Translations under genes and position numbers: made by a program | Assembly (NCBI RefSeq): GCF_058153355.1 | Contig: NZ_CM177019.1 | Direction: 5' to 3' (one strand) | DNA: 64,000 bases | Notes under the pieces: model-generated | The model's database searches: none | What the model was told of the DNA's origin: nothing | Seen by the model: the letters and a program-made list of their open reading frames with translations, nothing else | In this document: positions 32,196 through 61,145 of the stretch, piece by piece | Numbering within the stretch: position 1 is the first letter of the stretch | Layout: every line of letters begins with the position of its first letter

Positions 32196-32263
32196 GTATG
32201 GGGAGTTGGTGTGTTTCGTCGCCTGGATAAGACACGTCAGCGTCCCATCCGGCAATCAACATC

Positions 32264-32671
32264 CTATTTGCTCATCATCTTGCGCACCAGCTGCATAAAC
32301 AGCTCCTGCTCTTCTCCACTCAAACGCCCCAAAAATTCCTCATCCACACTGTCGCCAATCGGTATCGCCGCAGCAAGTACCTTTTCTCCTTCGGCAGTCA
32401 GCCAGACAAAGCGTCGCCGCTTATCAGCGGTGTCATGTTCACGTCTGACTAAGCCACGATTTTCCATTCTTGCCAACATTTCTGCCAGCGTTGCTTTGGT
32501 GCTGACGGCTGCTTCCATCAGTGCCACCTGTTCGATACCAGGTTTATCAGCAATGGCGCGCATCACCGCGTACTGTGGTTTGGTCAGGTCAGGTAACTCG
32601 TGCTGCCAGCGGGCCGTATGCTGCTGAAAAAGCTGTCGTAACTGATGGAACGCTTTATTTCGTAACGCCAT
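32264..32671 (-). CDS. MarR-family transcriptional regulator, divergent from the decarboxylase operon
   Basis: 135 aa ORF; assignment by reading the translation, no domain search run. Confidence 0.75.
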   Translation of the reverse strand: MALRNKAFHQLRQLFQQHTARWQHELPDLTKPQYAVMRAIADKPGIEQVALMEAAVSTKATLAEMLARMENRGLVRREHDTADKRRRFVWLTAEGEKVLAAAIPIGDSVDEEFLGRLSGEEQELFMQLVRKMMSK

Positions 32672-32787
32672 GTAAACTCCGGGCTAATTCTCTGTCGCTA
32701 TCATAGCGGTTTTTCAGTGACGAAGAAGATGTTGTTACTTTTCAATCCTTGCCGCTGTGGAAATGAAGGAGTATGCTAATAATAACG

Positions 32788-32799
32788 TTCGTATACGAA
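32788..32799. promoter_or_regulatory. perfect 12-bp palindrome TTCGTATACGAA in the MarR/decarboxylase divergent promoter region (candidate operator)
   Basis: Self-complementary 12-mer located 19-30 bp upstream of the UbiX-like start codon. Confidence 0.3.
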
Positions 32800-32817
32800 C
32801 AATTAAGAGAGTAAGCA

Positions 32818-33411
32818 ATGAAACTGATCGTCGGGATGACAGGGGCTACCGGTGCGCCTCTTGGTGTGGCATTACTGCAAGCGCTGCGGGAGATGCCGAA
32901 TGTCGAGACTCATCTGGTGATGTCGAAGTGGGCGAAAACCACTATTGAACTGGAAACGCCTTACAGCGCTCGCGATGTTGCCGCCCTCGCTGACTTCAGC
33001 CATAACCCGGCGGATCAGGCTGCGACCATCTCTTCCGGCTCCTTTCGTACCGACGGCATGATCGTTATTCCATGCAGTATGAAAACGCTCGCCGGTATCC
33101 GCGCTGGTTACGCCGATGGTCTCGTAGGGCGCGCGGCGGACGTCGTGCTCAAAGAAGGCCGCAAACTGGTGCTGGTGCCGCGTGAAATGCCGCTTAGCAC
33201 CATCCATCTCGAAAATATGCTCGCACTTTCGCGCATGGGCGTGGCGATGGTGCCGCCGATGCCTGCCTTTTATAACCATCCCGAAACGGTAGATGACATT
33301 GTCCACCACGTGGTAGCCCGCGTGCTGGATCAATTTGGCCTCGAACATCCTCACGCCAGGCGCTGGCAAGGGTTGCCGCAGGCCCGGAATTTTTCTCAGG
33401 AGAATGAATAA
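32818..33411 (+). CDS. UbiX/Pad1-family flavin prenyltransferase (decarboxylase subunit B; EcdB-like)
   Basis: 197 aa ORF; MKLIVGMTGATGAPLG flavoprotein motif. Confidence 0.85.
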   Translation: MKLIVGMTGATGAPLGVALLQALREMPNVETHLVMSKWAKTTIELETPYSARDVAALADFSHNPADQAATISSGSFRTDGMIVIPCSMKTLAGIRAGYADGLVGRAADVVLKEGRKLVLVPREMPLSTIHLENMLALSRMGVAMVPPMPAFYNHPETVDDIVHHVVARVLDQFGLEHPHARRWQGLPQARNFSQENE

Positions 33412-34838
33412 TGGCATTTGATGATTTACGCAGCTTCTTACAGGCGCTTGATGACCACGGCCAGTTACTGAAAATCAGCGAAGAGGTGAACGCGGAACCG
33501 GATCTGGCAGCCGCTGCCAACGCCACCGGGCGTATCGGCGACGGCGCGCCCGCGCTGTGGTTTGATAATATTCGCGGCTTTATCGATGCCCGCGTGGCGA
33601 TGAACACCATCGGCTCCTGGCAGAACCACGCGATTTCCCTCGGGCTGCCACCGAACACACCGGTTAAAAAACAGATTGATGAGTTTATCCGCCGCTGGGA
33701 TAACTTTCCCATTGCCCCGGAACGCCGCGCCAATCCTGCCTGGGCGCAGAACACCGTCGATGGTGACGAGATCAACCTGTTCGATATTCTGCCACTGTTT
33801 CGTTTAAACGATGGCGATGGCGGTTTCTATCTCGACAAAGCGTGCGTGGTTTCCCGCGATCCGCTCGATCCGGATAACTTCGGCAAGCAGAACGTCGGCA
33901 TCTATCGCATGGAAGTGAAGGGTAAGCGTAAGCTCGGCCTGCAACCGGTGCCGATGCACGATATCGCCCTGCATCTGCATAAAGCGGAAGAACGTGGTGA
34001 AGATTTGCCAATTGCCATCACGCTGGGTAACGATCCGATCATCACCCTGATGGGCGCCACCCCGCTGAAATATGATCAATCGGAGTACGAAATGGCGGGC
34101 GCGCTACGCGAAAGCCCGTACCCGATCGCCACCGCCCCGCTGACCGGTTTTGATGTGCCGTGGGGTTCAGAAGTGATCCTCGAAGGGGTTATCGAAAGCC
34201 GCAAACGTGAAATCGAAGGGCCGTTCGGTGAGTTTACCGGGCACTACTCCGGTGGGCGCAACATGACCGTAGTGCGCATCGATAAAGTCTCTTACCGCAC
34301 CAAACCGATTTTTGAATCGCTCTATCTCGGTATGCCGTGGACCGAAATCGACTACCTGATGGGGCCTGCCACCTGCGTGCCGCTTTACCAGCAGTTGAAA
34401 GCCGAGTTCCCGGAAGTGCAGGCGGTGAACGCTATGTACACCCACGGCCTGCTGGCGATTATCTCCACCAAAAAACGCTATGGCGGCTTTGCCCGCGCAG
34501 TGGGCCTGCGTGCGATGACCACGCCGCACGGTCTGGGTTATGTGAAGATGGTGATTATGGTCGATGAAGACGTTGACCCGTTCAACCTGCCGCAGGTGAT
34601 GTGGGCGCTCTCGTCGAAAGTGAACCCGGCAGGGGATCTGGTGCAGTTGCCGAATATGTCAGTACTGGAACTCGACCCTGGCTCAAGCCCGGCGGGGATC
34701 ACCGATAAGCTGATTATCGACGTCACCACGCCTGTCGCCCCGGACAACCGTGGTCACTACAGCCAGCCGGTGGTGGACTTACCGGAAACCAAAGCCTGGG
34801 CTGAAAAACTGACCGCTATGCTGGCCGCACGTAAATAA
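33411..34838 (+). CDS. UbiD-family non-oxidative aromatic acid decarboxylase (subunit C; EcdC-like)
   Basis: 475 aa ORF; assignment from recalled UbiD-family similarity. Confidence 0.85.
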   Translation: MAFDDLRSFLQALDDHGQLLKISEEVNAEPDLAAAANATGRIGDGAPALWFDNIRGFIDARVAMNTIGSWQNHAISLGLPPNTPVKKQIDEFIRRWDNFPIAPERRANPAWAQNTVDGDEINLFDILPLFRLNDGDGGFYLDKACVVSRDPLDPDNFGKQNVGIYRMEVKGKRKLGLQPVPMHDIALHLHKAEERGEDLPIAITLGNDPIITLMGATPLKYDQSEYEMAGALRESPYPIATAPLTGFDVPWGSEVILEGVIESRKREIEGPFGEFTGHYSGGRNMTVVRIDKVSYRTKPIFESLYLGMPWTEIDYLMGPATCVPLYQQLKAEFPEVQAVNAMYTHGLLAIISTKKRYGGFARAVGLRAMTTPHGLGYVKMVIMVDEDVDPFNLPQVMWALSSKVNPAGDLVQLPNMSVLELDPGSSPAGITDKLIIDVTTPVAPDNRGHYSQPVVDLPETKAWAEKLTAMLAARK

Positions 34839-34848
34839 GGAGAACAAG

Positions 34849-35085
34849 ATGATTTGTCCACGTTGTGCCGATGAAAAGATTGAAGTGATGGCGAAATCGC
34901 CGGTGAAAAATGTCTGGACGGTCTACCAGTGCCAGCATTGCCTCTATACATGGCGCGATACCGAACCGCTGCGCCGCACCAGCCGCGAACATTATCCCGA
35001 AGCGTTCCGCATGACGCAGAAAGATATTGATGACGCGCCGATGGTGCCGAGCATTCCGCCGCTGCTGGCGGCAGATAAGCGCTAA
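34849..35085 (+). CDS. small zinc-ribbon subunit of the hydroxyarylic acid decarboxylase (subunit D; EcdD-like)
   Basis: 78 aa ORF with CPRC...CQHC cysteine pairs, immediately downstream of the UbiD-like gene. Confidence 0.7.
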   Translation: MICPRCADEKIEVMAKSPVKNVWTVYQCQHCLYTWRDTEPLRRTSREHYPEAFRMTQKDIDDAPMVPSIPPLLAADKR

Positions 35086-35126
35086 TAAAAAAGGGCCGGG
35101 TAGAGGCTTTGCTTTACCCGGCCACG

Positions 35127-35783
35127 TTATTTGATTTTATAAAACGACAGCCGCCCGCTTTTCGGCGATCCGGTATCAATATAAATCTGGTTTGCGAACG
35201 TCTGGATGTTATCAAACATCATATGACCGAAGATAAAGCAGTCGGCGCCGTTTATTTCCTGTAACTCGCCTTTGAGCGATTTCAGTACGCGATCAACAGG
35301 CCAGAGCAATTCTCTCTCCGCTATTTCTTTGCCAAAGAGATATTCATTCCCCGGATAATCTGCATGCGCGATGACATATTTTATTATGTCGTTAGTGATT
35401 TCAACAATATGCGGAAGATTATGAAAACGTAGCAACAGGTCTATTGCTTCTTTTTGTTCCGTATCACTTAACTCAAAGAACCAGTCGCCACCGCTGGCAA
35501 GCCACATATTGCCATCGCCGGTCGCGAACGCATCCAATGCCATCGCTTCATGGTTGCCTTTAACCGATGTAAACCAGGGCTGGTTTAGCAGGCGCAGCAC
35601 GTTAAGACTCTCCGGCCCACGATCAATATTATCGCCGACAGAAATAAGTAAGTCGGTTTCAGGACAAAAAGATAATTGGTGCAGGCGGGATTGCAATAAT
35701 TGATAATCTCCATGAATGTCACCTACCACCCAGATATGGCGATAATGAGTGGTTTCAATTTTACGATAACGAATATCTGGCAT
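35127..35783 (-). CDS. pphB: serine/threonine protein phosphatase 2
   Basis: 218 aa from MPDIRYRKIET; GDIHGD and GNHE metallophosphatase motifs; ORF-track start 35921 is an upstream extension. Confidence 0.85.
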   Translation of the reverse strand: MPDIRYRKIETTHYRHIWVVGDIHGDYQLLQSRLHQLSFCPETDLLISVGDNIDRGPESLNVLRLLNQPWFTSVKGNHEAMALDAFATGDGNMWLASGGDWFFELSDTEQKEAIDLLLRFHNLPHIVEITNDIIKYVIAHADYPGNEYLFGKEIAERELLWPVDRVLKSLKGELQEINGADCFIFGHMMFDNIQTFANQIYIDTGSPKSGRLSFYKIK

Positions 35784-35805
35784 TGATCGCGCTCCGTAAA
35801 AAGAA

Positions 35806-36669
35806 TTATTCCGGCTTATGAAACAGAATGGTGTTAATCTCGACATCAGTGATTGCGCCAGCTGCTTCTGCTTTATGTAACCAGTATAGCGCTTTGTCTT
35901 TATCCACACCGTTCTCATCAATGCCCCAGGCGTAAATGCGGCCTAAGGATATTTGGGCATGAGGTAAATCTTGTGCGGCAGCTTTTTCAAACCAGTATTT
36001 AGCCTGTTTAATATCAGCGGGTACACCATCGCCCGTTAAAAAGAGCGTACCATAATTATACTGACCAATTTTGTCGCCTTTTTCTGCCGCAAACTTAAGA
36101 TATGTCGCAGCCTGGAGATAATTCTTTTCCTCGGCTGCGAGGAGCCCTAAATTAGCATGTGCAATGGGGTTTCCCTTTTGCGCCGCTTTAACGAGCCAGG
36201 ATTTTGCTTTATCGATATCATGGAACTTCTCTGGACCAAACTGATAGATATTGGCACAGTTTATCTGTGCCTGAAGATTTCCCTGTCTGGCTGATTTCTC
36301 ATACCAGTGAATGGCATTCTGGTAATCCGGCGGTGTGTCTTCATCTCCCTGATGATATAAAAGCCCGACATAAAATTGCGCAATGTCATCTCCCTGACTG
36401 GCTGCCAGATTAAACCAGTAAAATGCTTTATCGCGGTTTTTAACCCCCGTTACCCCTTCCTGGTAAACAATTCCCAATCCTTTTTGCGCAGATTTATCGC
36501 CGCCTTGTGCCCTTGCGATGATATTTTTCAGGTTTTCCTGTTTGTTTTTAGAATAACGTTGTTCAGCCTGGATAAGATCATCAAGCGAGGGTTCTTTGGC
36601 ACAATAACCTGTAAGAGGAAAATGCAAAATTAGTAGAGTAAATAAAATTAACTTTTTCATACATTCCAT
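35806..36669 (-). CDS. Sel1-repeat (TPR-like) secreted protein
   Basis: 287 aa ORF with signal peptide and repeated Sel1-type motifs (A..Y/W..A..G...AQ..LG..Y..G); not recalled at this position in K-12. Confidence 0.7.
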   Translation of the reverse strand: MECMKKLILFTLLILHFPLTGYCAKEPSLDDLIQAEQRYSKNKQENLKNIIARAQGGDKSAQKGLGIVYQEGVTGVKNRDKAFYWFNLAASQGDDIAQFYVGLLYHQGDEDTPPDYQNAIHWYEKSARQGNLQAQINCANIYQFGPEKFHDIDKAKSWLVKAAQKGNPIAHANLGLLAAEEKNYLQAATYLKFAAEKGDKIGQYNYGTLFLTGDGVPADIKQAKYWFEKAAAQDLPHAQISLGRIYAWGIDENGVDKDKALYWLHKAEAAGAITDVEINTILFHKPE

Positions 36670-36768
36670 GAATTAATTGTTGAGTCCTGATTTTAATTAT
36701 ACTCCATCTGTTATTGAGCCAATAATAATTAATAATCCCCGATGGGAAGGCCATCGGGAATTATGCCA

Positions 36769-40008: not shown

Positions 40009-42084
40009 TTAAACCAATGCCGATTTATCAATCCCCAGTCGTTTCATCCGTGATAGCAGTGTGGTGCGTTTTAGTCCCAGACGTTGCGCCGCGCCTTTCG
40101 GCCCGGCAACCACGCCGTTAGTCTCTTTTAATACACGCACAATTAGCTGATATTCATCTTCGCCCTCCTGAGCGACGACCGTTGCAGTCGGCGGCGTTTT
40201 AGGTTCCGGTAAAGCAATATCAGGCAATGACAGCTGCAGCACGTTGCCACGTGTCAGCAATACCGCGCGCTCAATGACGTTTTCCAGCTCGCGTACGTTA
40301 CCTGGCCACTCCATATTGCTCAACGCGCGCAACGTTTCGGCAGGAATGCTGTCGATATTACGCCCCAGACGGCGGGCAATTTTAAAAGTAAAGGATTTTG
40401 CCAGCAGCGGAATATCTTCCGGACGCTCGCGTAGTGGCGGCAGGTGGATCGGGAATACGTTCAGGCGGTAATAGAGATCGCTACGGAACTCGCGGTCGGC
40501 AACCATTTTTTTCAGATCGCGGTTAGTCGCGGCAATTAAACGCACGTCCGTCTGTATAATTTTATTACTGCCGAGACGTTCAAACTCCTGTTCCTGTAAT
40601 ACACGCAGCAACTTCGGTTGTAACTCCAGCGGCATATCACCCACTTCATCGAGGAACAGGGAGCTTTTATCCGCCAGTTCAAAACGACCGATACGCTGGG
40701 CGCTGGCTCCGGTAAACGCACCACGCTCATGGCCAAACAGATCGCTTTCCAACAATCCGGCAGGCATCGCCGCGCAGTTCATTTTTACCATGCGGCGATT
40801 ATTACGCCCACTGAGATTATGGATCGCGCGGGCAATCAGCTCTTTACCAGTGCCAGTTTCACCGAGGATCAGAACTGTACTGTCACTTTGTGCCACCATT
40901 TCAACTTGTTTAAGCACGCTGTACATGGCTTCACTGCGACCAATAATCTCGCCAAATTCACTATCAACATTGTTGAGCTGCTCGGTCAGGGCGAGATTTT
41001 CATCAACCAGTCGTTCTTTCAGACGATGAATTTCCTGATAGGCAAGGGCGTTATCGACAGCGATTGCCACACGTTCAGCAATCTGGCGCAGTAAATTCAG
41101 ATTGGTCGTGGTAAACACTTTCTCTTCGCATTGCGCCAGTTTCAGCACGCCCAGCATGGTGTCGCCAGACATCAGCGGTAATAGGCACAAGGTTTGAATC
41201 TGGTTGCCCCAGGTGTCGAACAACATGCGTTCGTAAGGGGCTAAATTATCTCGCTCGTGGAGATTAATCAGCAGCATCTCTTTGCTTTTAAACACGCGTT
41301 CGGTGAGGGTTCCTGCTTCATCGACTTCGCTCTGTTCGTGAGCGGGATGCTGTTTATCAAGATAGTGAGTGGAGTAGATGTTGAGTTTGTTTTTACGGTG
41401 GCTGCGTAAGACGATGCTGATATCGTCAATGTCGAAATAGTAATGGATTTCTTTGGCGACTTCGCTGACCAGTTCGTCCATATCCAGGCGAGAAAGCACC
41501 GCGTTGGTGATGGCAACCAGGATGCGGAAGTTATCGCGTTCCCGGCATAACAACTCATAGTCGACATTATTGACGACGCGGCTCTGGATTTGTTCGGTGA
41601 CGACAGAAATGATCTGCGTAAAAGTTTGCAGGCGATTGAACTCTTTTTCACTCCACGGGCGATCGTCATAACGAATAAATTCACAGCCACCAAAAATATG
41701 CCCTTCCGCCGCCAGTGGCATCAGGCAATAGTGACCAAATTTGGGGTATAGCCCACCAGCGGCCAGCTGCGGCCAGGTTTCACAAAATTCTTCGTAACTG
41801 CAATGCAGTGTATCAGGGCGCGACAAAATGCTGCGCACCGGACCGTGTGCCAGAACAGTTTCGTCTTCATAATTTATGGGGGTGTCTTTTTCACGCGACG
41901 CGTAATAAGACGCACGTTGAGTCTGCGCTTGCCACAACACAATAGCTGCATTGTCGGCGAGCGCAGAACGCTTTACCAATTGCGAAAGAGCCTCACACAG
42001 CGAGGCCAGATCGGGCTGCTGCAATAGTGTCCGAGTGATGTCGAACAACCCTTGTTGTCCGAGATCACTCATCGGTGTATATGA
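40009..42084 (-). CDS. fhlA: formate hydrogenlyase transcriptional activator FhlA (sigma-54-dependent)
   Basis: 692 aa from MSYTPMSDLGQ; AAA+ sigma-54 activator motifs (GETGTGKE, GAFTGA) and C-terminal HTH. Confidence 0.95.
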   Translation of the reverse strand, partial: SYTPMSDLGQQGLFDITRTLLQQPDLASLCEALSQLVKRSALADNAAIVLWQAQTQRASYYASREKDTPINYEDETVLAHGPVRSILSRPDTLHCSYEEFCETWPQLAAGGLYPKFGHYCLMPLAAEGHIFGGCEFIRYDDRPWSEKEFNRLQTFTQIISVVTEQIQSRVVNNVDYELLCRERDNFRILVAITNAVLSRLDMDELVSEVAKEIHYYFDIDDISIVLRSHRKNKLNIYSTHYLDKQHPAHEQSEVDEAGTLTERVFKSKEMLLINLHERDNLAPYERMLFDTWGNQIQTLCLLPLMSGDTMLGVLKLAQCEEKVFTTTNLNLLRQIAERVAIAVDNALAYQEIHRLKERLVDENLALTEQLNNVDSEFGEIIGRSEAMYSVLKQVEMVAQSDSTVLILGETGTGKELIARAIHNLSGRNNRRMVKMNCAAMPAGLLESDLFGHERGAFTGASAQRIGRFELADKSSLFLDEVGDMPLELQPKLLRVLQEQEFERLGSNKIIQTDVRLIAATNRDLKKMVADREFRSDLYYRLNVFPIHLPPLRERPEDIPLLAKSFTFKIARRLGRNIDSIPAETLRALSNMEWPGNVRELENVIERAVLLTRGNVLQLSLPDIALPEPKTPPTATVVAQEGEDEYQLIVRVLKETNGVVAGPKGAAQRLGLKRTTLLSRMKRLGIDKSALV

Positions 42085-42160
42085 CATTTTGTTCTTCCAG
42101 GAAAGCACCGCAAAGCGGTGCAAAAGGTCATTGACTAACTATAGGAGATTTAGAATTTTA

Positions 42161-44561: not shown

Positions 44562-45424
44562 CGCTGTGTCTCCAGCCAGTTCAGCCACTGGTCCATCCCT
44601 TCGCCGCTGGTGGCGGAAATAAGGATGATTTCAATTTCTGGATTGACTTCGCGGGCGCAGGCGATGCACTTCTCAACGTCGAAATTGAGATACGGTAGCA
44701 GGTCAACTTTGTTGAGCAGCATCAGTGAGGCGGCGGCAAACATATGTGGATATTTCAGCGGTTTGTCTTCACCTTCGGTAACGGAAAGCACCGCCACTTT
44801 GTGTTTTTCACCGAGATCGAAGCTCGCCGGACATACGAGGTTGCCAACGTTTTCGATAAACAGAATACCGTTATCGTCCAGTGGCAGGCGCGGCGCGGCG
44901 TCGGCGATCATCTGTGCGTCAAGATGGCAACCTTTACCGGTATTCACCTGAATCGCTGGCGTGCCGGTAGCGCGAATGCGCGCGGCATCGTTCACGGTTT
45001 GCTGGTCGCCTTCAATCACCGCACACGGAACGCTATCTTTCAGGCGCATTAAGGTTTCAGTCAGCAGCGTGGTTTTACCGGAACCAGGGCTGGAAACCAG
45101 GTTGAGTACCAACTGATTGCGGGCAGCAAAGCGCGCTCGGTTGCGTTCAGCCAGACGGTTGTTTTTGTCCAGCACGTCAATTTCGACTTCCAGCATCCGA
45201 CGCTGGCTCATGCCCGGCGCGTGAGTGCCCGCTTCGCCATGACCGTAATGCAGGTCGCCTTCTTCAGTCTGGCTGGGGGTAAATTCAGGCGCTTTAATGC
45301 CGGTGATTTTCATCTTCGGGCGTGCCGCCGGGGCAAATGGCGCGCTACGAAACGCGGAATGAGGGTTATGTTCATCACCCTCGATATACAGGTTGCCTTC
45401 ACCGCAACCGCATGTTGTACACAT
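44552..45424 (-). CDS. hypB: hydrogenase nickel-incorporation GTPase HypB
   Basis: 290 aa ORF; His-rich N-terminus and [10 protein letters not shown]-loop. Confidence 0.9.
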
Positions 45425-45427
45425 CGC

Positions 45428-45778
45428 TCACTCCTGGTCTATTTCTATCCGCCGAATCTGTAAACCGTCGTCTGCCACAATTTGTAGCATGTCGCCATGA
45501 CACTGTGGACAGCGTCGGACGCGCTGGGTTAATAGCGTCACATATTGTTGGCATGTTTCGCACCAGCATTCGGCCTCTTGTTCTTCGAGGTGCAGTTTAC
45601 AACCTTCCGCTACGCTGCCGCGGCAAACCAGATCAAAACAAAAGGCAAGAGAGCTGGTTTCGACACAAGAAAATGCGCCAATTTTGAGCCAGACCCCAGT
45701 TACGCGTTTTGCACCGTGTTTTGCGGCCTGCTGTTCGATCAATTCCAGTGCCCGTTGGCAGAGGGTTATTTCGTGCAT
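45428..45778 (-). CDS. hypA: hydrogenase nickel-insertion protein HypA
   Basis: 116 aa from MHEITLCQRALELIE; CxxC...CPxC zinc motif. Confidence 0.9.
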   Translation of the reverse strand: MHEITLCQRALELIEQQAAKHGAKRVTGVWLKIGAFSCVETSSLAFCFDLVCRGSVAEGCKLHLEEQEAECWCETCQQYVTLLTQRVRRCPQCHGDMLQIVADDGLQIRRIEIDQE

Positions 45779-45809
45779 ATCGCCTCCCATTAACTATTGC
45801 CAGCTACAA

Positions 45810-45824
45810 GCAATAATTGTGCCA
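45810..45824 (-). promoter_or_regulatory. candidate sigma-54 promoter for hypA
   Basis: Minus-strand TGGCAC-aattat-TGC, about 30 bp upstream of hypA. Confidence 0.45.
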
Positions 45825-45850
45825 GTGTTGATTATCCCTAAAGTGAATAA

Positions 45851-45890
45851 TGTCGATGATGTCGAAATGACACGTCGACACGGCGACGAA
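45851..45890. promoter_or_regulatory. FhlA upstream activating sequence (UAS) in the hypA/hycA divergent region
   Basis: Repeated tgtcgaaatgaca-type motifs, also seen at 46501-46558. Confidence 0.45.
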
Positions 45891-45937
45891 ATTCACCAGA
45901 ATCCTAAAAATCTCTTTTATAACAATAAATTAAAAGT

Positions 45938-45953
45938 TGGCACAAAAAATGCT
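45938..45953 (+). promoter_or_regulatory. candidate sigma-54 promoter for the hyc operon
   Basis: TGGCAC-aaaaaa-TGCT with GG/GC spacing matching the -24/-12 consensus, about 40 bp upstream of hycA. Confidence 0.5.
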
Positions 45954-45989
45954 TAAAGCTGGCATCTCTGTTAAACGGGTAACCTGACA

Positions 45990-46451
45990 ATGACTATTTG
46001 GGAAATAAGCGAGAAAGCCGATTACATCGCACAGCGGCATCGTCGCCTACAGGACCAGTGGCATCTCTACTGCAATTCGCTGGTTCAGGGGATCACGTTA
46101 TCGAAAGCGCGCCTGCATCACGCCATGAGCTGTGCGCCAGACAAAGAACTCTGTTTCGTCCTTTTTGAACATTTTCGCATTTACGTCACCCTGGCGGATG
46201 GCTTTAACAGCCACACCATCGAGTATTACGTCGAAACGAAAGAGGGTGAAGAAAAACAGCGGATTGCGCAGGCACAATTGAGCATTGACGGAATGATAGA
46301 TGGCAAGGTCAACATCCGCGATCGCGAACAGGTACTGGAACACTATCTCGAAAAAATCGCTGGCGTTTACGACAGCTTATACACCGCCATTGAAAACAAT
46401 GTACCGGTGAATTTAAGCCAACTGGTAAAGGGACAAAGCCCGGCGGCATGA
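45990..46451 (+). CDS. hycA: formate hydrogenlyase regulatory protein HycA
   Basis: 153 aa ORF. Confidence 0.9.
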   Translation: MTIWEISEKADYIAQRHRRLQDQWHLYCNSLVQGITLSKARLHHAMSCAPDKELCFVLFEHFRIYVTLADGFNSHTIEYYVETKEGEEKQRIAQAQLSIDGMIDGKVNIRDREQVLEHYLEKIAGVYDSLYTAIENNVPVNLSQLVKGQSPAA

Positions 46452-46500
46452 GCTGAGGCTTTGCCCGTTTTGCAGGCGTTACGCCTGTTTGGGGATGGGC

Positions 46501-46558
46501 GTGTCGATGAGTGTCGAAAATGACATTTCATCGGCATGTTTTCGTCAAAAATGACAAT
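46501..46558. promoter_or_regulatory. second FhlA UAS-like motif cluster in the hycA-hycB intergenic region
   Basis: gtgtcgaaaatgaca and tcgtcaaaaatgaca repeats resembling those at 45851-45890. Confidence 0.4.
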
Positions 46559-46575
46559 CACCTGAGGAATGCCTG

Positions 46576-47098
46576 GTGAATCGTTTTGTAATTGCTGACT
46601 CCACGCTCTGTATCGGCTGCCACACCTGTGAGGCCGCCTGTTCAGAGACGCATCGCCAGCACGGCCTGCAATCAATGCCGCGCCTGCGAGTGATGCTAAA
46701 TGAAAAAGAATCTGCGCCGCAGCTCTGTCACCACTGTGAAGATGCACCCTGTGCGGTGGTCTGCCCGGTTAACGCTATCACCCGCGTTGATGGGGCAGTG
46801 CAGCTGAATGAAAGCCTGTGCGTAAGCTGCAAACTGTGCGGCACCGCCTGCTCCGGCGCGTGTCAGCACGTTGCTTGACTGGGTGCCGGGTATACGCGCG
46901 ATCGCCGTCAAATGTGACCTCTGTAGCTTTGATGAACAAGGTCCAGCCTGCGTGCGGATGTGCCCAACCAAAGCCCTGCATCTGGTGGATAACACCGATA
47001 TCGCCCGCGTCAGCAAGCGTAAGCGTGAGCTGACCTTTAACACGGACTTTGGCGATCTCACCTTGTTTCAGCAGGCTCAAAGTGGAGAGGCTAAATGA
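46576..47098 (+). pseudogene. hycB: hycB (formate hydrogenlyase 4Fe-4S subunit) disrupted by a frameshift, consistent with an internal deletion of about 89 bp
   Basis: N-terminal 100 aa frame (two complete Cx2Cx2Cx3CP clusters and the start of a third) stops at 46878; the C-terminal 75 aa (LLDWVPGIRAIAVKCDLCSFDEQGPACVRMCP...) continues in another frame; combined span 523 bp versus about 612 bp expected. Confidence 0.6.
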
Positions 47099-48921
47099 GC
47101 GCAATTTCCCTGATCAATAGCGGCGTGGCGTGGTTTGTTGCTGCCGCTGTTCTGGCATTTCTCTTTTCTTTTCAAAAGGCGTTAAGCGGCTGGATTGCCG
47201 GAATTGGCGGCGCGGTGGGTAGCCTGTATACGGCAGCCGCAGGCTTCACTGTGCTGACTGGCGCGGTTGGCGTGAGCGGCGCGTTGTCGCTGGTAAGCTA
47301 CAATGTGCAAATCTCTCCGCTTAATGCGATTTGGCTGATAACCCTCGGCCTGTGCGGTCTGTTTGTCAGCCTTTACAACATTGACTGGCATCGCCATGCG
47401 CAGGTGAAATGCAACGGTTTGCAAATCAATATGTTGATGGCTGCTGCCGTCTGTGCCGTCATTGCCAGCAATCTGGGCATGTTCGTAGTAATGGCAGAAA
47501 TCATGGCCCTGTGTGCGGTGTTCCTCACCAGCAACAGCAAAGAGGGCAAACTGTGGTTTGCGCTGGGGCGTCTTGGCACTTTGCTGCTGGCGATTGCTTG
47601 CTGGCTGCTGTGGCAACGTTACGGCACGCTGGATCTGCGCCTGCTGGATATGCGCATGCAACAGCTGCCGCTTGGTTCCGATATCTGGCTGCTCGGTGTG
47701 ATTGGTTTTGGCCTGCTGGCCGGGATTATCCCGCTGCACGGCTGGGTGCCACAGGCTCATGCTAACGCCTCTGCGCCAGCTGCCGCGCTGTTTTCCACGG
47801 TGGTGATGAAAATTGGCCTGCTGGGTATTTTAACCCTGTCTCTGCTGGGCGGTAATGCGCCGCTGTGGTGGGGAATTGCACTTCTGGTACTCGGCATGAT
47901 CACCGCGTTCGTCGGCGGTCTGTATGCGCTGATGGAGCACAACATTCAGCGTCTGCTGGCTTACCACACTCTGGAAAATATCGGCATCATCCTGCTGGGG
48001 CTGGGCGCTGGCGTAACGGGTATCGCGCTTGAACAACCGGCGCTGATTGCCCTTGGTCTGGTCGGTGGTCTGTACCATCTGCTTAACCATAGCCTGTTCA
48101 AGAGCGTACTGTTCCTCGGGGCTGGGAGCGTCTGGTTCCGTACCGGTCATCGCGATATTGAAAAACTCGGCGGTATTGGCAAAAAAATGCCGGTTATCTC
48201 CATCGCCATGTTGGTCGGTCTGATGGCAATGGCTGCGCTGCCACCGCTGAACGGTTTTGCCGGGGAATGGGTTATCTATCAATCCTTCTTCAAACTGAGC
48301 AATAGTGGCGCGTTTGTTGCTCGTCTTCTCGGGCCGCTGCTCGCCGTGGGGCTGGCAATTACCGGTGCGCTGGCAGTGATGTGTATGGCGAAAGTTTATG
48401 GCGTTACTTTCCTTGGCGCGCCGCGTACCAAAGAAGCCGAAAACGCCACCTGTGCGCCGCTCCTGATGAGCGTAAGCGTAGTGGCACTGGCGATTTGCTG
48501 CGTGATTGGCGGTGTTGCTGCGCCGTGGCTGCTGCCGATGTTGTCTGCTGCCGTACCTCTGCCGCTGGAGCCTGCTAATACAACCGTTTCTCAACCAATG
48601 ATCACGTTGCTGCTGATTGCCTGCCCACTTCTGCCATTCATCATTATGGCGATTTGCAAAGGCGACCGTCTGCCGTCGCGTTCCCGCGGCGCTGCCTGGG
48701 TATGTGGCTACGACCATGAAAAATCAATGGTGATTACCGCTCACGGTTTTGCCATGCCGGTGAAACAGGCATTTGCGCCAGTGCTGAAACTGCGCAAATG
48801 GCTGAATCCGGTGTCGCTGGTACCAGGCTGGCAGTGCGAGGGGAGTGCGTTGCTGTTTCGCCGGATGGCGCTGGTTGAACTGGCGGTGCTGGTGGTGATT
48901 ATTGTTTCACGAGGAGCCTGA
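47095..48921 (+). CDS. hycC: formate hydrogenlyase membrane subunit 3 (NuoL-like)
   Basis: 608 aa polytopic membrane ORF. Confidence 0.9.
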   Translation: MSAISLINSGVAWFVAAAVLAFLFSFQKALSGWIAGIGGAVGSLYTAAAGFTVLTGAVGVSGALSLVSYNVQISPLNAIWLITLGLCGLFVSLYNIDWHRHAQVKCNGLQINMLMAAAVCAVIASNLGMFVVMAEIMALCAVFLTSNSKEGKLWFALGRLGTLLLAIACWLLWQRYGTLDLRLLDMRMQQLPLGSDIWLLGVIGFGLLAGIIPLHGWVPQAHANASAPAAALFSTVVMKIGLLGILTLSLLGGNAPLWWGIALLVLGMITAFVGGLYALMEHNIQRLLAYHTLENIGIILLGLGAGVTGIALEQPALIALGLVGGLYHLLNHSLFKSVLFLGAGSVWFRTGHRDIEKLGGIGKKMPVISIAMLVGLMAMAALPPLNGFAGEWVIYQSFFKLSNSGAFVARLLGPLLAVGLAITGALAVMCMAKVYGVTFLGAPRTKEAENATCAPLLMSVSVVALAICCVIGGVAAPWLLPMLSAAVPLPLEPANTTVSQPMITLLLIACPLLPFIIMAICKGDRLPSRSRGAAWVCGYDHEKSMVITAHGFAMPVKQAFAPVLKLRKWLNPVSLVPGWQCEGSALLFRRMALVELAVLVVIIVSRGA

Positions 48922-53763: not shown

Positions 53764-53805
53764 TTTTTCAGTAAGGAATTCAGGGAATTGAAAATCAGAA
53801 CAGGG

Positions 53806-54156
53806 ATGTGCGCTTTTTTATTTTGCTTAGTGCTTCCTACGCAGGCTACCAGCTTTACCGAATATCTGCCAATGAGTGACAGCGAATACGCGCAAAAGCG
53901 GGCGCTGAAACCTCTCCTGACTATGCCTTATTATACCGAGCAAACCTGGCATTTTAGAAAAGTGGGCGTTGCTGGCGTGACGCTTGAGAAGATGCCAAAT
54001 GAAGAGGATTACTGGCAATTAACTGCTAAAGACCGCGCCGGTAAATCCTGGAAGGTGCCTGTGGGTATGCTGGCAAATATGGCGGGCAAAGGGCAACTCT
54101 ATCGCGCCGATCTGGATCGTAACGGCATTCAGGATCTGGTTACCAAGTGCTGGTAA
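53806..54156 (+). CDS. hypothetical secreted protein (islet ORF 1)
   Basis: ORF 53788-54156 with signal-peptide-like N-terminus MCAFLFCLVLPTQA from ATG 53806; no recognised domain. Confidence 0.4.
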   Translation: MCAFLFCLVLPTQATSFTEYLPMSDSEYAQKRALKPLLTMPYYTEQTWHFRKVGVAGVTLEKMPNEEDYWQLTAKDRAGKSWKVPVGMLANMAGKGQLYRADLDRNGIQDLVTKCW

Positions 54157-54187
54157 TGGTCTGGCTCCTTATGCACATTTAATCCTT

Positions 54188-54553
54188 ATGACGTTCACGC
54201 GCGATGGTCGTCCCTGTGTCTTTGAACCCTGGGGATTCTACACCGCAAGCAAAACTGGCGTAGATGATTTGCTGGATTTGCAAGGCAATGGCCACACACA
54301 ATTGCTGGATATGCAGTTTAATTCTGGTTACTGGATAACCAGTCTGTATCAGGTAAAAGACGCCAAATGGCAACGTGTTCACGGCTGGTTTGGCAAGTTA
54401 AGCTATCCCGCGCTCACGCGTTTTACTTATACCCCCAACCGTAAACTCGTCCTCAAACCCATTGCCGGGCGTGACCCGCAAACGGAAGATTTAGCGCTGA
54501 CGCAGCGTTGTTTGATAACAGGGGATGTGCTTGATGGGGTGAATCAGAACTGA
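54188..54553 (+). CDS. hypothetical protein (islet ORF 2); possibly the C-terminal part of a frameshifted gene with ORF 1
   Basis: 121 aa ORF; its frame is open upstream to 54023, overlapping ORF 1 in another frame. Confidence 0.35.
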   Translation: MTFTRDGRPCVFEPWGFYTASKTGVDDLLDLQGNGHTQLLDMQFNSGYWITSLYQVKDAKWQRVHGWFGKLSYPALTRFTYTPNRKLVLKPIAGRDPQTEDLALTQRCLITGDVLDGVNQN

Positions 54554-54715
54554 CTTTTTGCAGAGTGGGTATGAGGATTTTGGGGGAGAATTATATCGCG
54601 CGCAAGTGTTTACATATTGTGAACTTGGATTTGGTGAGCTATAGTTTCTGAACACATAAGGATAGAACTCGCAGATGTGGCTGTTTACTTACTATAAGGA
54701 AGTTAAAACTTAAAA

Positions 54716-55027
54716 ATGCACATCATTTCGAAAGCGCCATTTGAAGAGTCTGCGCGCAAATATCCTAACGACGCTCTGGCTCTACACTCATTGTATCGGG
54801 TTATTAAGGAAACGGATTTTTCTACGCCAGAAGAAATGCGAACGGCGTTTCCCAACCTCGACAATTTTAAATATCGCAACAAATGGTACGTTCTGGATGT
54901 CGGCGGGAACAATCTTAGGGTTATTGCCTACATAAACTTTGTTAATAAGCGGTTCTTTGTGAAGCACATAACGAATCATGCCGAGTATGACAAACTGACA
55001 CGTTACTACAGAGAGAACAAAGAATGA
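54716..55027 (+). CDS. higB: HigB-family type II toxin (RelE/ParE superfamily)
   Basis: 103 aa; shares FPNLDNFKY and VGGNNLRV with my recollection of K-12 HigB. Confidence 0.8.
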   Translation: MHIISKAPFEESARKYPNDALALHSLYRVIKETDFSTPEEMRTAFPNLDNFKYRNKWYVLDVGGNNLRVIAYINFVNKRFFVKHITNHAEYDKLTRYYRENKE

Positions 55028-55443
55028 CTGCTAATGCTGCACGCGCTGTTAAAGCAACAAGAGAACTGGTCAATGCAGTCCCCTTTCTGGGAGGCAGTGA
55101 CTCAGAAGATGATTATCGTGAAGCACTGGAACTGGTCGAATATTTGATTGAAGAAGATGACACCAATCCACTTATCGACTTTCTGGCGAGCCGCATTGCA
55201 GAGTATGAAAACAACCACGAAAAGTTTGCAGAGTTCGACAAAGCCGTTGCTGCAATGCCGGTTGGCGTGGCGTTACTTCGCACGTTGATTGATCAACATA
55301 ATCTGACCTATGCGGATTTGAAGAACGAAATCGGCTCTAAATCCCTGGTCAGTCAGATTTTGTCTGGACAAAGATCCCTGACGATATCCCACATTAAGGC
55401 ACTTTCAGCCCGATTTGGCGTTAAGCCGGAATGGTTTCTTTGA
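55024..55443 (+). CDS. higA: HigA-family antitoxin (HTH, XRE family)
   Basis: 139 aa; start overlaps the higB stop (ATGA); recalled HigA-like motifs including IGSKSLVSQILSG. Confidence 0.8.
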   Translation: MTANAARAVKATRELVNAVPFLGGSDSEDDYREALELVEYLIEEDDTNPLIDFLASRIAEYENNHEKFAEFDKAVAAMPVGVALLRTLIDQHNLTYADLKNEIGSKSLVSQILSGQRSLTISHIKALSARFGVKPEWFL

Positions 55444-55488
55444 TTTTGACTGATGCCAAACGCCAGATTGCCCGATGCGCAACGCTTA

Positions 55489-56718
<1,230 letters not shown>

Positions 56719-56748
56719 CATGCCTGCAATCTGGGAAACCGGGGTAGA

Positions 56749-56779
<31 letters not shown>

Positions 56780-56792
56780 TGTCGCACGAACT

Positions 56793-56830
56793 ATGTAGGC
56801 CGGATAAGGCGTTCACGCCGCATCCGGCAC
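56793..56830. repeat. REP palindromic unit downstream of ascB
   Basis: tgtaggccggataaggcgttcacgccgcatccggca. Confidence 0.6.
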
Positions 56831-59986: not shown

Positions 59987-60997
59987 ATGACGACGATGCT
60001 GGAAGTGGCGAAGCGCGCCGGGGTTTCAAAAGCGACCGTTTCCCGCGTGCTTTCAGGTAATGGCTACGTCAGCCAGGAAACTAAAGATCGCGTGTTTCAG
60101 GCGGTGGAAGAGAGCGGCTACCGCCCAAATTTGCTGGCGCGCAATCTGTCAGCGAAGAGTACCCAGACGCTGGGGCTGGTAGTGACCAACAGGCTTTACC
60201 ACGGCATTTATTTTAGTGAATTACTGTTTCATACCGCGAGAATGGCGGAAGAGAAAGGGCGTCAGCTGCTATTGGCAGATGGCAAACATAGCGCCGAAGA
60301 AGAACGCCAGGCGATTCAGTATCTACTGGATCTGCGCTGCGACGCCATTATGATTTACCCGCGCTTTTTAAGCGTGGATGAGATTGATGACATCATTGAT
60401 GCACACAATCAGCCGATAATGGTGCTCAATCGCCGCCTGCGCAAAAACAGTAGCCATAGCGTCTGGTGCGATCATAAACAGACCAGCTTTAACGCCGTGG
60501 CAGAGTTGATAAACGCCGGACATCAGGAGATTGCTTTCCTTACCGGTTCGATGGATTCCCCCACCAGCATTGAACGCCTTGCCGGATATAAAGACGCGCT
60601 GGCGCAGCATGGTATTGCACTCAATGAAAAACTTATCGCTAACGGTAAATGGACGCCTGCCAGCGGGGCCGAAGGGGTAGAAACGTTGCTCGAACGTGGG
60701 GCTAAATTTAGCGCGTTAGTTGCCAGTAACGACGATATGGCGATAGGTGCGATGAAAGCGTTGCATGACCGTGGTGTAGCGGTGCCGGAGCAAGTATCGG
60801 TTATTGGATTTGATGATATCGCAATTGCCCCCTACACCGTTCCGGCGCTCTCCAGCGTAAAAATTCCGGTGACTGAGATGATTCAGGAAATAATTGGGCG
60901 GCTGATATTTATGCTCGATGGTGGTGCTTACACACCGCCGAAAACCTTCAGCGGAAAACTGATCCGCCGCGACTCCCTCATTGATCTTTCGCGATAA
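59987..60997 (+). CDS. ascG: LacI-family repressor AscG, apparently intact
   Basis: 336 aa from MTTMLEVAKRAGVSKATVSRVLSG with HTH; ORF-track start 59921 is an upstream extension. Confidence 0.85.
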   Translation: MTTMLEVAKRAGVSKATVSRVLSGNGYVSQETKDRVFQAVEESGYRPNLLARNLSAKSTQTLGLVVTNRLYHGIYFSELLFHTARMAEEKGRQLLLADGKHSAEEERQAIQYLLDLRCDAIMIYPRFLSVDEIDDIIDAHNQPIMVLNRRLRKNSSHSVWCDHKQTSFNAVAELINAGHQEIAFLTGSMDSPTSIERLAGYKDALAQHGIALNEKLIANGKWTPASGAEGVETLLERGAKFSALVASNDDMAIGAMKALHDRGVAVPEQVSVIGFDDIAIAPYTVPALSSVKIPVTEMIQEIIGRLIFMLDGGAYTPPKTFSGKLIRRDSLIDLSR

Positions 60998-61010
60998 GCA
61001 TTGTCATCAC

Positions 61011-61046
61011 ATGTCATCGTCACTAGTGTCGATGACATCGTTTTTT
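61011..61046 (+). terminator. rho-independent terminator downstream of ascG
   Basis: atgtcatcg-tcactagtgt-cgatgacat stem-loop followed by cgttttttct. Confidence 0.55.
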
Positions 61047-61145
61047 CTGCATTGCAGAATTTAATTTCTTTAAATAACAATCAATTAAAAATTGGCATGA
61101 TTTGTGAATGTATCGGCGCATTAACTGTCATTGCTGGAGAATTTG

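What the first reader, a model, noticed from the sequence alone, without database searches (positions are those of the whole stretch)
45790..46575. Shared FhlA regulatory architecture: divergent sigma-54 promoters and repeated UAS motifs
The hypA/hycA intergenic region holds oppositely oriented -24/-12-type elements (45810-45824 on the minus strand, 45938-45953 on the plus strand) flanking tgtcgaaatgaca-type repeats. Near-identical repeats recur in the hycA-hycB spacer (46501-46558). This matches my recollection of FhlA-dependent control of both operons, and it matters because hycB downstream appears disrupted.
Basis: partly seen in the sequence, partly recalled or inferred. Interest (0 to 1): 0.3.

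Follow-up and report, generated by a model that had tools for sequence, protein, structure and literature searches.

The report
Known hyc–hyp formate-regulon control region
This is the already well-studied switch region that turns on the hydrogen-producing (hyc) and hydrogenase-maturation (hyp) operons of E. coli in response to formate; it is intact and ordinary here, although the hycB gene just downstream carries a private frameshifting deletion.

Summary
Two divergent sigma-54 promoters sit at 45809-45825 (minus strand, hypA) and 45937-45953 (plus strand, hycA). They are the two best sigma-54 matrix hits in the 64-kb window. Their 17-mers are identical to sites mapped by sigma-54 ChIP-seq in E. 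coli K-12. Between them lies an array of TGTCG/TGACA half-sites (UAS-1, 45849-45896). A near-identical array recurs in the hycA-hycB spacer (UAS-2, 46498-46556).

All of these elements are base-for-base identical to K-12. They appear as sharp phylogenetic footprints in 80 loci from about 20 genera of Enterobacteriaceae, while the linkers between them drift. The same array, with an IHF-like box, also precedes the hydN sigma-54 promoter in this window.

This is the published FhlA/sigma-54/IHF control region of the formate regulon, so it is already known. hycB is indeed broken. An 89-bp deletion between 12-bp direct repeats shifts the frame, and none of 5,426 complete E. coli genomes shares the junction. 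The deletion leaves the regulatory DNA, fhlA and all other hyc, hyp and hydN genes intact. Which UAS serves which promoter rests on literature I recall but could not retrieve.

The parts
45428..45778 (-). hypA coding sequence, first gene of hypABCDE (with read-through into fhlA)
   Evidence: 100% amino-acid identity to K-12 HypA over 116 residues; ORF listed
45809..45825 (-). PhypA sigma-54 promoter, CTGGCACAATTATTGCT. The predicted transcription start is near 45798, 20 nt before the hypA ATG.
   Evidence: Matrix rank 1 in the window at 21.0 bits. Identical to K-12 ChIP-seq site OS28, which has FAT 201 and the highest PSSM score in the intergenic-site table. Present in all 80 loci, scoring 16.5-20.8 bits.
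45849..45896 (.). UAS-1, an array of TGTCG / TGACA / CGACA half-sites spaced about 9-10 bp apart. It is centred about 95 bp upstream of the hyc start and about 71 bp upstream of the hyp start.
   Evidence: Sequence read. It is the only 60-bp stretch of the window holding 3 or more TGTCG/CGACA pentamers. Identical to K-12. The core 45850-45879 is conserved across genera while the flanks are not.
45920..45932 (+). IHF-like site TAACAATAAATTA, ending 5 nt before the -24 element of PhycA
   Evidence: Matches 12 of 13 positions of WATCAANNNNTTR. The same box sits at the same offset before the hydN promoter, at 61075-61087. It is conserved, and many Enterobacter-like sequences read AATCAAnnnnTTA, a perfect match. 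One such match in 210 bp is not significant by itself.
45937..45953 (+). PhycA sigma-54 promoter, TTGGCACAAAAAATGCT. The predicted transcription start is near 45964, 26 nt before the hycA ATG.
   Evidence: Matrix rank 2 in the window at 17.0 bits. Identical to K-12 ChIP-seq site OS27, FAT 91. Present in all 80 loci, 34-37 nt before the hycA ATG.
45990..46451 (+). [quoted passage not shown]
   Evidence: 98% identity to K-12 HycA; K-12 annotation
46498..46556 (.). UAS-2 in the hycA-hycB spacer. The proximal block is TGTCGATGAGTGTCGAAAATGACA. The distal block is TTTCGTCAAAAATGAC.
   Evidence: Identical to K-12. Mean identity across 80 sequences is 0.79 for the proximal block and 0.91 for the distal block, against 0.27 for the preceding spacer. 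The distal 16-mer is found with at most 1 mismatch in all 80 loci, 667-752 bp from PhypA.
46576..47098 (+). hycB pseudogene. An 89-bp deletion between GGCAYCGCCTGC direct repeats (junction within 46840-46851) shifts the frame and creates a stop at 46876-46878.
   Evidence: The junction is absent from all 5,426 complete E. coli genomes searched.
40012..42087 (-). fhlA, the cognate enhancer-binding activator, intact
   Evidence: 692 aa aligned without gaps at 98.4% identity to K-12 FhlA; ORF listed
60988..61108 (+). Third module of the same kind in the window: a TGTCA/TGTCG array, an IHF-like box and the hydN sigma-54 promoter TTGGCATGATTTGTGAA (61092-61108)
   Evidence: The K-12 hydN site is ChIP-seq peak OS26.

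Best explanation
This is the control region of the formate regulon, as characterised in E. coli K-12. RNA polymerase with sigma-54 sits in closed complexes at two back-to-back promoters. PhycA fires rightward into hycABCDEFGHI. PhypA fires leftward into hypABCDE and reads through into fhlA. When formate accumulates, FhlA binds arrays of TGTCG-type half-sites lying on one face of the helix. It uses ATP hydrolysis to open the promoters, with IHF bending the DNA next to PhycA. One array (UAS-1) lies between the promoters. A second, near-identical array (UAS-2) lies about 700 bp from PhypA, inside the hyc operon between hycA and hycB. From recalled literature, UAS-1 serves hyc and UAS-2 serves hyp. 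HycA, the first hyc product, counteracts FhlA, and read-through from hyp into fhlA gives positive feedback.

Shown here: the sequence elements, their statistical strength, their identity to K-12, their conservation, and the intact activator gene.

Taken from papers read here: sigma-54 occupancy of the identical sequences in K-12, and FhlA dependence of the four operons.

Inferred or recalled: FhlA and IHF contacts at these exact bases, and the pairing of each UAS with a promoter.

In this strain the circuit should still fire, but its hyc output lacks a functional HycB.
For: - Matrix ranks 1 and 2 of the window.
- The 17-mers are identical to K-12 sigma-54 ChIP-seq sites for hypA and hycA, which are among the strongest peaks in that genome.
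- gSELEX also places an RpoN site in the hycA/hypA spacer.
- Salmonella ChIP-chip found sigma-54 at both homologous promoters, with 26-fold (hyc) and 5.6-fold (hyp) sigma-54-dependent expression.
- All elements are identical to K-12. The substitutions against K-12 fall in the linkers at 45840-45842, 45897-45905 and 45919.
- Both promoters are present in 80 of 80 loci from about 20 genera.
- UAS-1, the IHF box and UAS-2 stand out as conservation footprints.
- UAS-1 and UAS-2 align at 22 of 24 columns, well beyond shuffles.
- The same half-site arrays precede hydN in this window and fdhF in K-12.
- FhlA is reported to bind one side of the DNA. That fits the 9-10 bp half-site spacing and the roughly 10-12 bp steps seen in short-range spacing.
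- fhlA is intact.
- No Rfam family, and no excess of sigma-70 promoter-like or terminator-like sites, competes for the region.
Against: - The published idealised FhlA consensus CATTTCGTACGAAATG does not discriminate these sites when used as a rigid 16-mer. The best local match is 11 of 16, at 46538-46553. The window holds 40 hits at 5 or fewer mismatches, against about 34 expected.
- Short patterns such as GTCR-N3/4-TGAC are common in the window.
- The primary papers on FhlA footprints, the IHF requirement and the assignment of UAS-2 to hyp (Schlensog et al. 1994, Hopper et al. 1994, Leonhartsberger et al. 2000) are not held in the library. These points rest on my recollection.
- UAS-1 sits only about 71 bp from the hyp start, and its spacing to both promoters changes in helical-turn steps. 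A strictly one-UAS-per-promoter picture is therefore not proven by my data.
Confidence: 0.93

Rival explanations
1. Shared-enhancer variant. Both UAS arrays act on both promoters. UAS-1 sits between the two promoters and feeds hyp as well as hyc, and UAS-2 is an auxiliary site that raises the local FhlA concentration. There would then be no dedicated pairing of UAS-1 with hyc and UAS-2 with hyp.
For: UAS-1 lies between the two promoters. Across genera its distance to each promoter changes in steps of about 10-12 bp: 54, 65-68 or 75-77 bp to PhycA, and 38-43, 50 or 55 bp to PhypA. In Kluyvera, opposite shifts keep the promoter-to-promoter distance at about 128-130 bp. This suggests a face-of-helix constraint towards both sides.
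Against: Part of the step size is explained by gain or loss of whole half-site units of the array itself. The events are few, and the sequences are phylogenetically clustered. Recalled genetics assigns hyp activation to the hycA-hycB site. A centre at about -71 is closer than usual for an enhancer-binding activator without a bend in between, and no IHF-like box lies between UAS-1 and PhypA.
Confidence: 0.2
2. The hycA-hycB spacer element is not an enhancer. Instead it is a cis signal for hycB expression itself, such as an internal promoter or an mRNA element controlling hycB translation.
For: The invariant block TTTCGTCAAAAATGAC ends only about 9 nt before the hycB Shine-Dalgarno sequence GAGGA, and in most genera it keeps that spacing. 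It is conserved more strongly than UAS-1.
Against: It is a near copy of UAS-1 and resembles the fdhF and hydN arrays. No sigma-54 hit, no significant sigma-70 promoter-like site and no Rfam family was found in the spacer. The GUCA/UGAC palindrome could form only a 4-bp stem. In Kosakonia a 17-18 nt insertion separates the block from the ribosome-binding site without loss of the motif.
Confidence: 0.05
3. The motif matches arise by chance in AT-rich intergenic DNA.
For: The bare consensus TGGCAC-N5-TTGC with one mismatch is not enriched in the window, with 7 hits found and 8 expected. Short half-site patterns are common.
Against: The sites hold matrix ranks 1 and 2, with the top score above every shuffle. 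Both sites lie 20-26 nt from predicted start to start codon, in the correct orientation. They are identical to ChIP-seq sites. They are conserved in 80 of 80 loci.
Confidence: 0.01

Closest known systems
E. coli K-12 hycA/hypA divergent sigma-54 promoter region with FhlA upstream activating sequences (formate regulon)
   Same: The gene order is the same. Both 17-mer promoters, UAS-1, the IHF-like box and UAS-2 are identical base for base. The distances from predicted start to start codon are the same.
   Different: Only linker bases differ, at 45840-45842, 45897-45905 and 45919. The downstream hycB carries an 89-bp frameshifting deletion that K-12 and 5,426 other complete genomes lack.
hydN-hypF promoter region (FhlA- and sigma-54-dependent), present in the same window at 60988-61108
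   Same: It has an array of TGTCA/TGTCG half-sites about 50-105 bp upstream of the -24 element. The IHF-like box TAACAATNAATTA sits 5 nt before TTGGCA, at the same offset as at PhycA.
   Different: It is a single promoter, not a divergent pair. The -12 region is weaker (GTGAA in place of TTGC; 9.9 bits). No second distant array was seen.
fdhF upstream activating sequence of K-12
   Same: It contains half-site palindromes of the same type, such as CGTCACGTCAAAACTGACGACAG and TTTTTCGTCAG, upstream of a sigma-54 promoter.
   Different: It has no IHF-like TAACAAT box next to the promoter. It lies at a separate chromosomal locus outside the window.
Other divergent sigma-54 promoter pairs, e.g. zraP/zraS in E. 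coli
   Same: Two back-to-back sigma-54 sites about 160 bp apart appear in the K-12 ChIP-seq table as OS38 and OS39.
   Different: The activator is different (ZraR), and no second enhancer within a downstream operon is known to me. This comparison comes from the table and my own knowledge and was not analysed here.

Membership tests
sigma-54 (RpoN) -24/-12 promoter | GG and GC doublets with fixed spacing (TGGCAC-N5-TTGC) | tested here: met
   45810-45824 (-) has 0 mismatches and 45938-45952 (+) has 1 mismatch.
sigma-54 (RpoN) -24/-12 promoter | Matrix score within the range of experimentally bound sites and above background | tested here: met
   The scores are 21.0 and 17.0 bits against a training median of 15.9. 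They rank 1 and 2 in the window. The best shuffle score was 18.6.
sigma-54 (RpoN) -24/-12 promoter | Correct orientation and short distance to a downstream gene | tested here: met
   Predicted starts lie 20 nt before hypA and 26 nt before hycA. The motif-to-ATG distance is fixed at 34-37 nt in 80 loci.
sigma-54 (RpoN) -24/-12 promoter | Occupancy by sigma-54 holoenzyme and dependence on rpoN | not testable with these tools
   This is documented for the identical K-12 sequences (ChIP-seq sites OS27 and OS28; gSELEX) and for the Salmonella homologues. It was not measured in this strain.
sigma-54 (RpoN) -24/-12 promoter | A cognate enhancer-binding activator is encoded in the genome | tested here: met
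   fhlA is intact at 40012-42087 (-), 98.4% identical to K-12.
FhlA upstream activating sequence | Match to the published consensus CATTTCGTACGAAATG (Leonhartsberger et al. 2000, as quoted in PMC4987338) | tested here: inconclusive
   Half-sites with 1 mismatch occur at 45862-45869 (-), 45886-45893 (-) and 46524-46531 (+). The best full 16-mer match is 11 of 16, at 46538-46553. The rigid pattern is no more frequent here than in shuffles.
FhlA upstream activating sequence | Sequence shared among independent FhlA-controlled loci | tested here: met
   UAS-1 and UAS-2 align at 22 of 24 columns, scoring 34 against a shuffle maximum of 28. The same TGTCR/TGAC arrays occur upstream of hydN and fdhF.
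FhlA upstream activating sequence | Evolutionary conservation as a non-coding footprint | tested here: met
   Mean identities are high across the UAS-1 core, 0.79 for the UAS-2 proximal block and 0.91 for the distal block, against 0.27-0.39 for the linkers. The distal 16-mer is present in 80 of 80 loci.
FhlA upstream activating sequence | Direct binding by FhlA and requirement for formate induction | not testable with these tools
   The primary footprinting papers are not held. Only secondary statements are available.
IHF-assisted enhancer-dependent promoter | IHF consensus WATCAANNNNTTR between the UAS and the promoter | tested here: inconclusive
   45920-45932 matches 12 of 13 positions. The box is conserved and recurs at hydN. 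The background rate is 0.1 per 100 bp, so the match alone is not significant, and binding was not tested.

The most novel reading that the evidence does not exclude
Across genera the intergenic FhlA array shifts by whole helical turns between two promoters that stay about 128-130 bp apart. The shifts are sometimes compensating (+10 on one side, -10 on the other). The distant hycA-hycB array shows no phase preference at all. One reading my data do not exclude is that a single FhlA assembly on UAS-1 is stereospecifically positioned to contact both divergent sigma-54 promoters. The classical one-UAS-per-operon assignment would then be incomplete.
Probability: 0.12. Interest if true: 0.35.

Novelty: already known. 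Interest (0 to 1): 0.1.

Why it matters
The region matters mainly as annotation. It confirms that this window carries the complete, unaltered cis-regulatory apparatus of the formate regulon: two sigma-54 promoters, two FhlA arrays and an IHF-like box, together with an intact fhlA.

The only lesion in the hydrogen-evolving pathway here is therefore the private 89-bp deletion in hycB, not a regulatory defect. The strain should still induce the hyp maturation genes and the hyc transcript with formate. It probably cannot assemble a working formate hydrogenlyase-1, so it would ferment without gas from this enzyme.

One of the two enhancers for this pair of operons lies inside the hyc operon. Decay of hyc genes therefore cannot freely remove that stretch without affecting the hyp side, if the recalled assignment is right.

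Tried and rejected
- The bare consensus search TGGCACNNNNNTTGC with 1 mismatch gave 7 hits against 8 expected, which is uninformative. I replaced it with a matrix built from ChIP-seq sites.
- Rigid scans with the published FhlA 16-mer and its half-site gave no discrimination and no clusters of 3 or more. Short palindromic patterns such as GTCR-N3/4-TGAC are too common to be useful.
- Attempts to read the primary papers on FhlA binding and IHF failed because they are not held: PubMed id 8034727, PMC135417 and PMC176951. Full-text searches for phrases placing a UAS between hycA and hycB returned nothing.
- The scan for sigma-70 promoter-like and terminator-like sites stayed at chance level, with 2 against 1.7 and 1 against 1.6.
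- The Rfam search of 45300-47200 gave no match at E-values up to 1.
- I first guessed the window came from Shigella. I dropped this because the DNA is only about 94-96.5% identical to K-12 while being 99.6% identical to a few genomes labelled E. coli.
- A rigid, phase-locked complex between UAS-1 and UAS-2 is unlikely. Their separation varies from 614 to 699 bp and covers all helical phases.

Full report
**What is there.** The finding spans the DNA between hypA and hycB. hypA runs on the minus strand (45428-45778). hycA (45990-46451) and hycB (from 46576) run on the plus strand. Gene identities follow from 98-100% amino-acid identity to the K-12 proteins and from the K-12 annotation of the aligned region. 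The window is in reverse orientation relative to the K-12 map.

**Check of the sigma-54 elements.** The minus strand at 45810-45824 reads TGGCACAATTATTGC, a perfect match to TGGCAC-N5-TTGC. The plus strand at 45938-45952 reads TGGCACAAAAAATGC, with one mismatch. Counting such matches is not informative by itself, because 7 were found in the window and 8 are expected by chance.

I therefore built a 17-column matrix from 38 intergenic sigma-54 sites mapped by ChIP-seq in E. coli K-12 (Bonocora et al. 2015, PMC4591121). I left out hycA, hypA, hydN and norV so that the test was not circular. Scanning both strands of the window gave these results:

| Site | Score | Rank in window |
|---|---|---|
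| 45809-45825 (-) | 21.0 bits | 1 |
| 45937-45953 (+) | 17.0 bits | 2 |

Training sites score 9.2-18.8 bits, with a median of 15.9. The best score in each of 30 shuffles averaged 14.9 and never exceeded 18.6.

**Identity with mapped K-12 sites.** The two 17-mers are letter-for-letter those of ChIP-seq sites OS28 (CTGGCACAATTATTGCT, hypA) and OS27 (TTGGCACAAAAAATGCT, hycA). OS28 has a fold-above-threshold of 201 and the highest PSSM score in the intergenic-site table. OS27 has a fold-above-threshold of 91. Both are flagged as experimentally confirmed promoters in EcoCyc. The predicted starts lie 20 nt and 26 nt before the start codons. An in vitro gSELEX screen also places an RpoN site in the hycA/hypA spacer (PMC8743547). 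In Salmonella both homologous promoters bind sigma-54, and both operons are sigma-54-dependent (PMC3844500). By identity of sequence, the starts in the window should be near 45798 (-) and 45964 (+).

**Check of the repeats.** Between the promoters lies aTGTCGatgaTGTCGaaaTGACAcGTCGACAcggCGACGaaattcac (45849-45896). The hycA-hycB spacer holds gTGTCGatgagTGTCGaaaaTGACAtttcatcggcatgttttCGTCAaaaaTGACA (46501-46555). The proximal 24-26 nt of the two arrays align at 22 of 24 columns with two single-base gaps. This is the best non-self hit of that block anywhere in the window, scoring 34 against a shuffle mean of 22, sd 2.3 and maximum 28. UAS-1 is also the only 60-bp stretch of the window with three or more TGTCG/CGACA pentamers. 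The half-sites recur every 9-10 bp. This fits the statement that the FhlA helix-turn-helix domain binds one side of the DNA (PMC11291172, quoting Leonhartsberger et al. 2000).

**Independent controls.** The window contains a third sigma-54 promoter of the same regulon, hydN, at 61092-61108 (ChIP-seq site OS26). About 50-105 bp upstream of it is the same kind of array, TTGTCAtcacaTGTCAtcGTCActagTGTCGaTGACA. The K-12 fdhF upstream region holds CGTCACGTCAAAACTGACGACAG and TTTTTCGTCAG. All four FhlA-controlled loci therefore share the motif family.

The published idealised consensus is CATTTCGTACGAAATG (PMC4987338 Table 1). It overlaps these arrays in register. CATTTCGA lies on the minus strand at 45862-45869, CATTTCAT at 46524-46531, and the 16-mer at 46538-46553 matches 11 of 16. 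As a rigid pattern, however, it is no more frequent here than in shuffled sequence. A simple FhlA matrix scan would therefore not have confirmed the finding, and other evidence is needed.

**Comparative evidence.** A search of one genome per species with HycA returned 80 loci from about 20 genera. They include Escherichia, Salmonella, Citrobacter, Enterobacter, Klebsiella, Raoultella, Kluyvera, Kosakonia, Lelliottia and Pseudescherichia. The results were:

- Both promoters are present in all 80 loci. PhypA scores 16.5-20.8 bits and PhycA scores 11.1-18.4 bits. The PhycA motif ends 34-37 nt before the hycA ATG in every locus.
- Alignments show sharp footprints. The table gives the fraction of the other sequences that carry the window's base.

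| Element | Fraction identical to the window |
|---|---|
| GG/GC cores of both promoters | about 0.9-1.0 |
| UAS-1 core, 45850-45879 | high |
| IHF-like block | mean 0.66 |
| UAS-2 proximal block | mean 0.79 |
| UAS-2 distal block | mean 0.91 |
| Linkers | 0.27-0.39 |

- The 16-mer TTTCGTCAAAAATGAC is found with at most one mismatch in all 80 loci.
- The window's differences from K-12 in this region (45840-45842, 45897-45905, 45919) all fall in the non-conserved linkers. Every functional block is identical.

**IHF.** TAACAATAAATTA at 45920-45932 matches the IHF consensus WATCAANNNNTTR at 12 of 13 positions and ends 5 nt before TTGGCAC. The hydN promoter has TAACAATCAATTA at the same offset. 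Many Enterobacter-type sequences read AATCAAnnnnTTA, a perfect match. One such match in 210 bp is not significant alone, because the background rate is 0.1 per 100 bp. That IHF stimulates hyc and hyp is stated in a secondary source (PMC2636881 Table 1). The exact site is my inference.

**How it works.** The best-supported account is the established one. Sigma-54 holoenzyme waits in closed complexes at both promoters. FhlA, activated by formate, binds the half-site arrays and opens the promoters by ATP hydrolysis. IHF bends the DNA next to PhycA. HycA counteracts FhlA.

From my own knowledge of Schlensog, Lutz and Böck (1994), Hopper et al. (1994) and Lutz et al. (1991), the intergenic array activates hyc and the hycA-hycB array activates hyp from about 700 bp away. 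I could not retrieve these papers, so this pairing is recalled, not verified.

My data add two observations that bear on it. First, the distance from UAS-2 to PhypA varies from 667 to 752 bp and covers all helical phases, as expected for a distant enhancer acting through a flexible loop. Second, short-range distances within the intergenic region change in steps of about 10-12 bp:

| Distance | Values observed (bp) |
|---|---|
| UAS-1 core to PhycA | 54, 65-68, 75-77 |
| PhypA to UAS-1 core | 38-43, 50, 55 |

In Kluyvera, a longer distance on one side is offset by a shorter one on the other, which keeps the promoters about 128-130 bp apart. Part of this reflects gain or loss of whole half-site units, and the number of independent events is small. 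It is suggestive only. It leaves open that UAS-1 also contributes to hyp.

**Alternatives considered.**

- Chance is excluded by the ranks, the identity to bound sites and the conservation.
- The spacer element could instead be a signal for hycB expression. This is unlikely because it duplicates UAS-1 and no promoter or RNA family is detected there. Its closeness to the hycB ribosome-binding site is nevertheless real.

**The hycB lesion.** K-12 and the nearest complete genome, E. coli 2013C-4282, carry 89 bp that the window lacks. The nearest genome otherwise differs by only 6 substitutions in 1,801 bp. The missing stretch lies between two copies of GGCAYCGCCTGC, and one copy remains at 46840-46851. 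The frame shifts, and a stop follows at 46876-46878. HycB residues 1-92 and 119-203 are still recognisable but lie in different frames. A 42-nt query across the junction found no genome covering it among 5,426 complete E. coli genomes. All other hyc, hyp, fhlA, hydN and hypF (as far as the window reaches) genes are full length at 96-100% identity. The lesion is therefore recent and private, or an assembly error. It does not touch the regulatory DNA.

**Verdict.** The feature is already known and ordinary. Interest is low.

Noticed in passing
window 46825-46880 (junction within 46840-46851): hycB carries an 89-bp deletion between two 12-bp direct repeats, GGCAYCGCCTGC. The deletion shifts the frame. 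The junction is absent from all 5,426 complete E. coli genomes searched, and the nearest genome (2013C-4282) has an intact hycB. All neighbouring hyc, hyp, fhlA and hydN genes are intact.
   Followed up: yes
loci L005-L084 and window 45809-45953: Across about 20 genera, short-range spacings in the hypA-hycA intergenic region change in steps of about 10-12 bp. The promoter-to-promoter motif distance is 106, 116-117 or 126-130 bp. In Kluyvera opposite shifts on either side of UAS-1 compensate each other. The distance from UAS-2 to PhypA (667-752 bp) shows every helical phase.
   Followed up: partly
window 48305-48321 (+), inside hycC: The site GTGGCGCGTTTGTTGCT scores 15.1 bits and ranks third in the window. 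It corresponds to the weak intragenic ChIP-seq site IS31 of K-12 (GTGGCGCGTTTGTTGCC). The window's last base, T, is closer to the consensus.
   Followed up: partly
window 46058-46074 (+), inside hycA: A sense-oriented sigma-54-like site, GTGGCATCTCTACTGCA, scores 13.6 bits and ranks fourth. It lies about 95 nt downstream of the hyc start. K-12 reads GTGGCACATCTACTGCA there. It is not in the high-stringency ChIP-seq list.
   Followed up: no
window 45798-45824 and 45938-45964: The two promoters form a 27-nt inverted repeat with 22 of 27 positions matching. The similarity extends past the -12 element into the start region: TGCTTGTAGCTGGCA against TGCTTAAAGCTGGCA. The extension appears to be specific to Escherichia in the cross-genus alignment.
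   Followed up: partly
window 61071-61108 and 45917-45953: The hydN and hycA promoters share an extended block, ATAACAATNAATTAAAANTTGGCA. It comprises the IHF-like box and the -24 element at identical spacing. The fdhF promoter lacks it.
   Followed up: partly
window 46422-46475: An inverted repeat, CTGGTAAAGGGACAAAGCC / GGCTTTGCCCGTTTTGCAG, overlaps the hycA stop codon. It lies in a roughly 50-nt segment present only in Escherichia, Citrobacter, Salmonella and Intestinirhabdus among the sequences shown. The scan did not call it a terminator.
   Followed up: no
window 53784-56793: A roughly 3-kb insertion lies between hycI and ascB relative to K-12. It carries a HigB-toxin/HTH pair (54716-55443) and an IS110-family transposase (55689-56669).
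   Followed up: partly
window 32189-36729: In the mutS-rpoS variable region, the K-12 ygbJ-N genes are absent. UbiX-like flavoprotein (32818-33411) and UbiD-like decarboxylase (33411-34838) genes and a Sel1-repeat protein (35806-36669, minus strand) are present in their place.
   Followed up: partly
window 18871-21033: The K-12 type I-E CRISPR-Cas locus is replaced by about 2.2 kb. This stretch holds a 342-aa ORF with only a Cas3 HD domain (19260-20288).
   Followed up: no
whole window: The DNA is only about 94-96.5% identical to K-12 over long aligned stretches. In the hyc region it is 99.0-99.6% identical to just six genomes labelled E. coli, including 2013C-4282, 2020CK-00188 and WL297. This suggests a rare, divergent Escherichia lineage.
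   Followed up: partly
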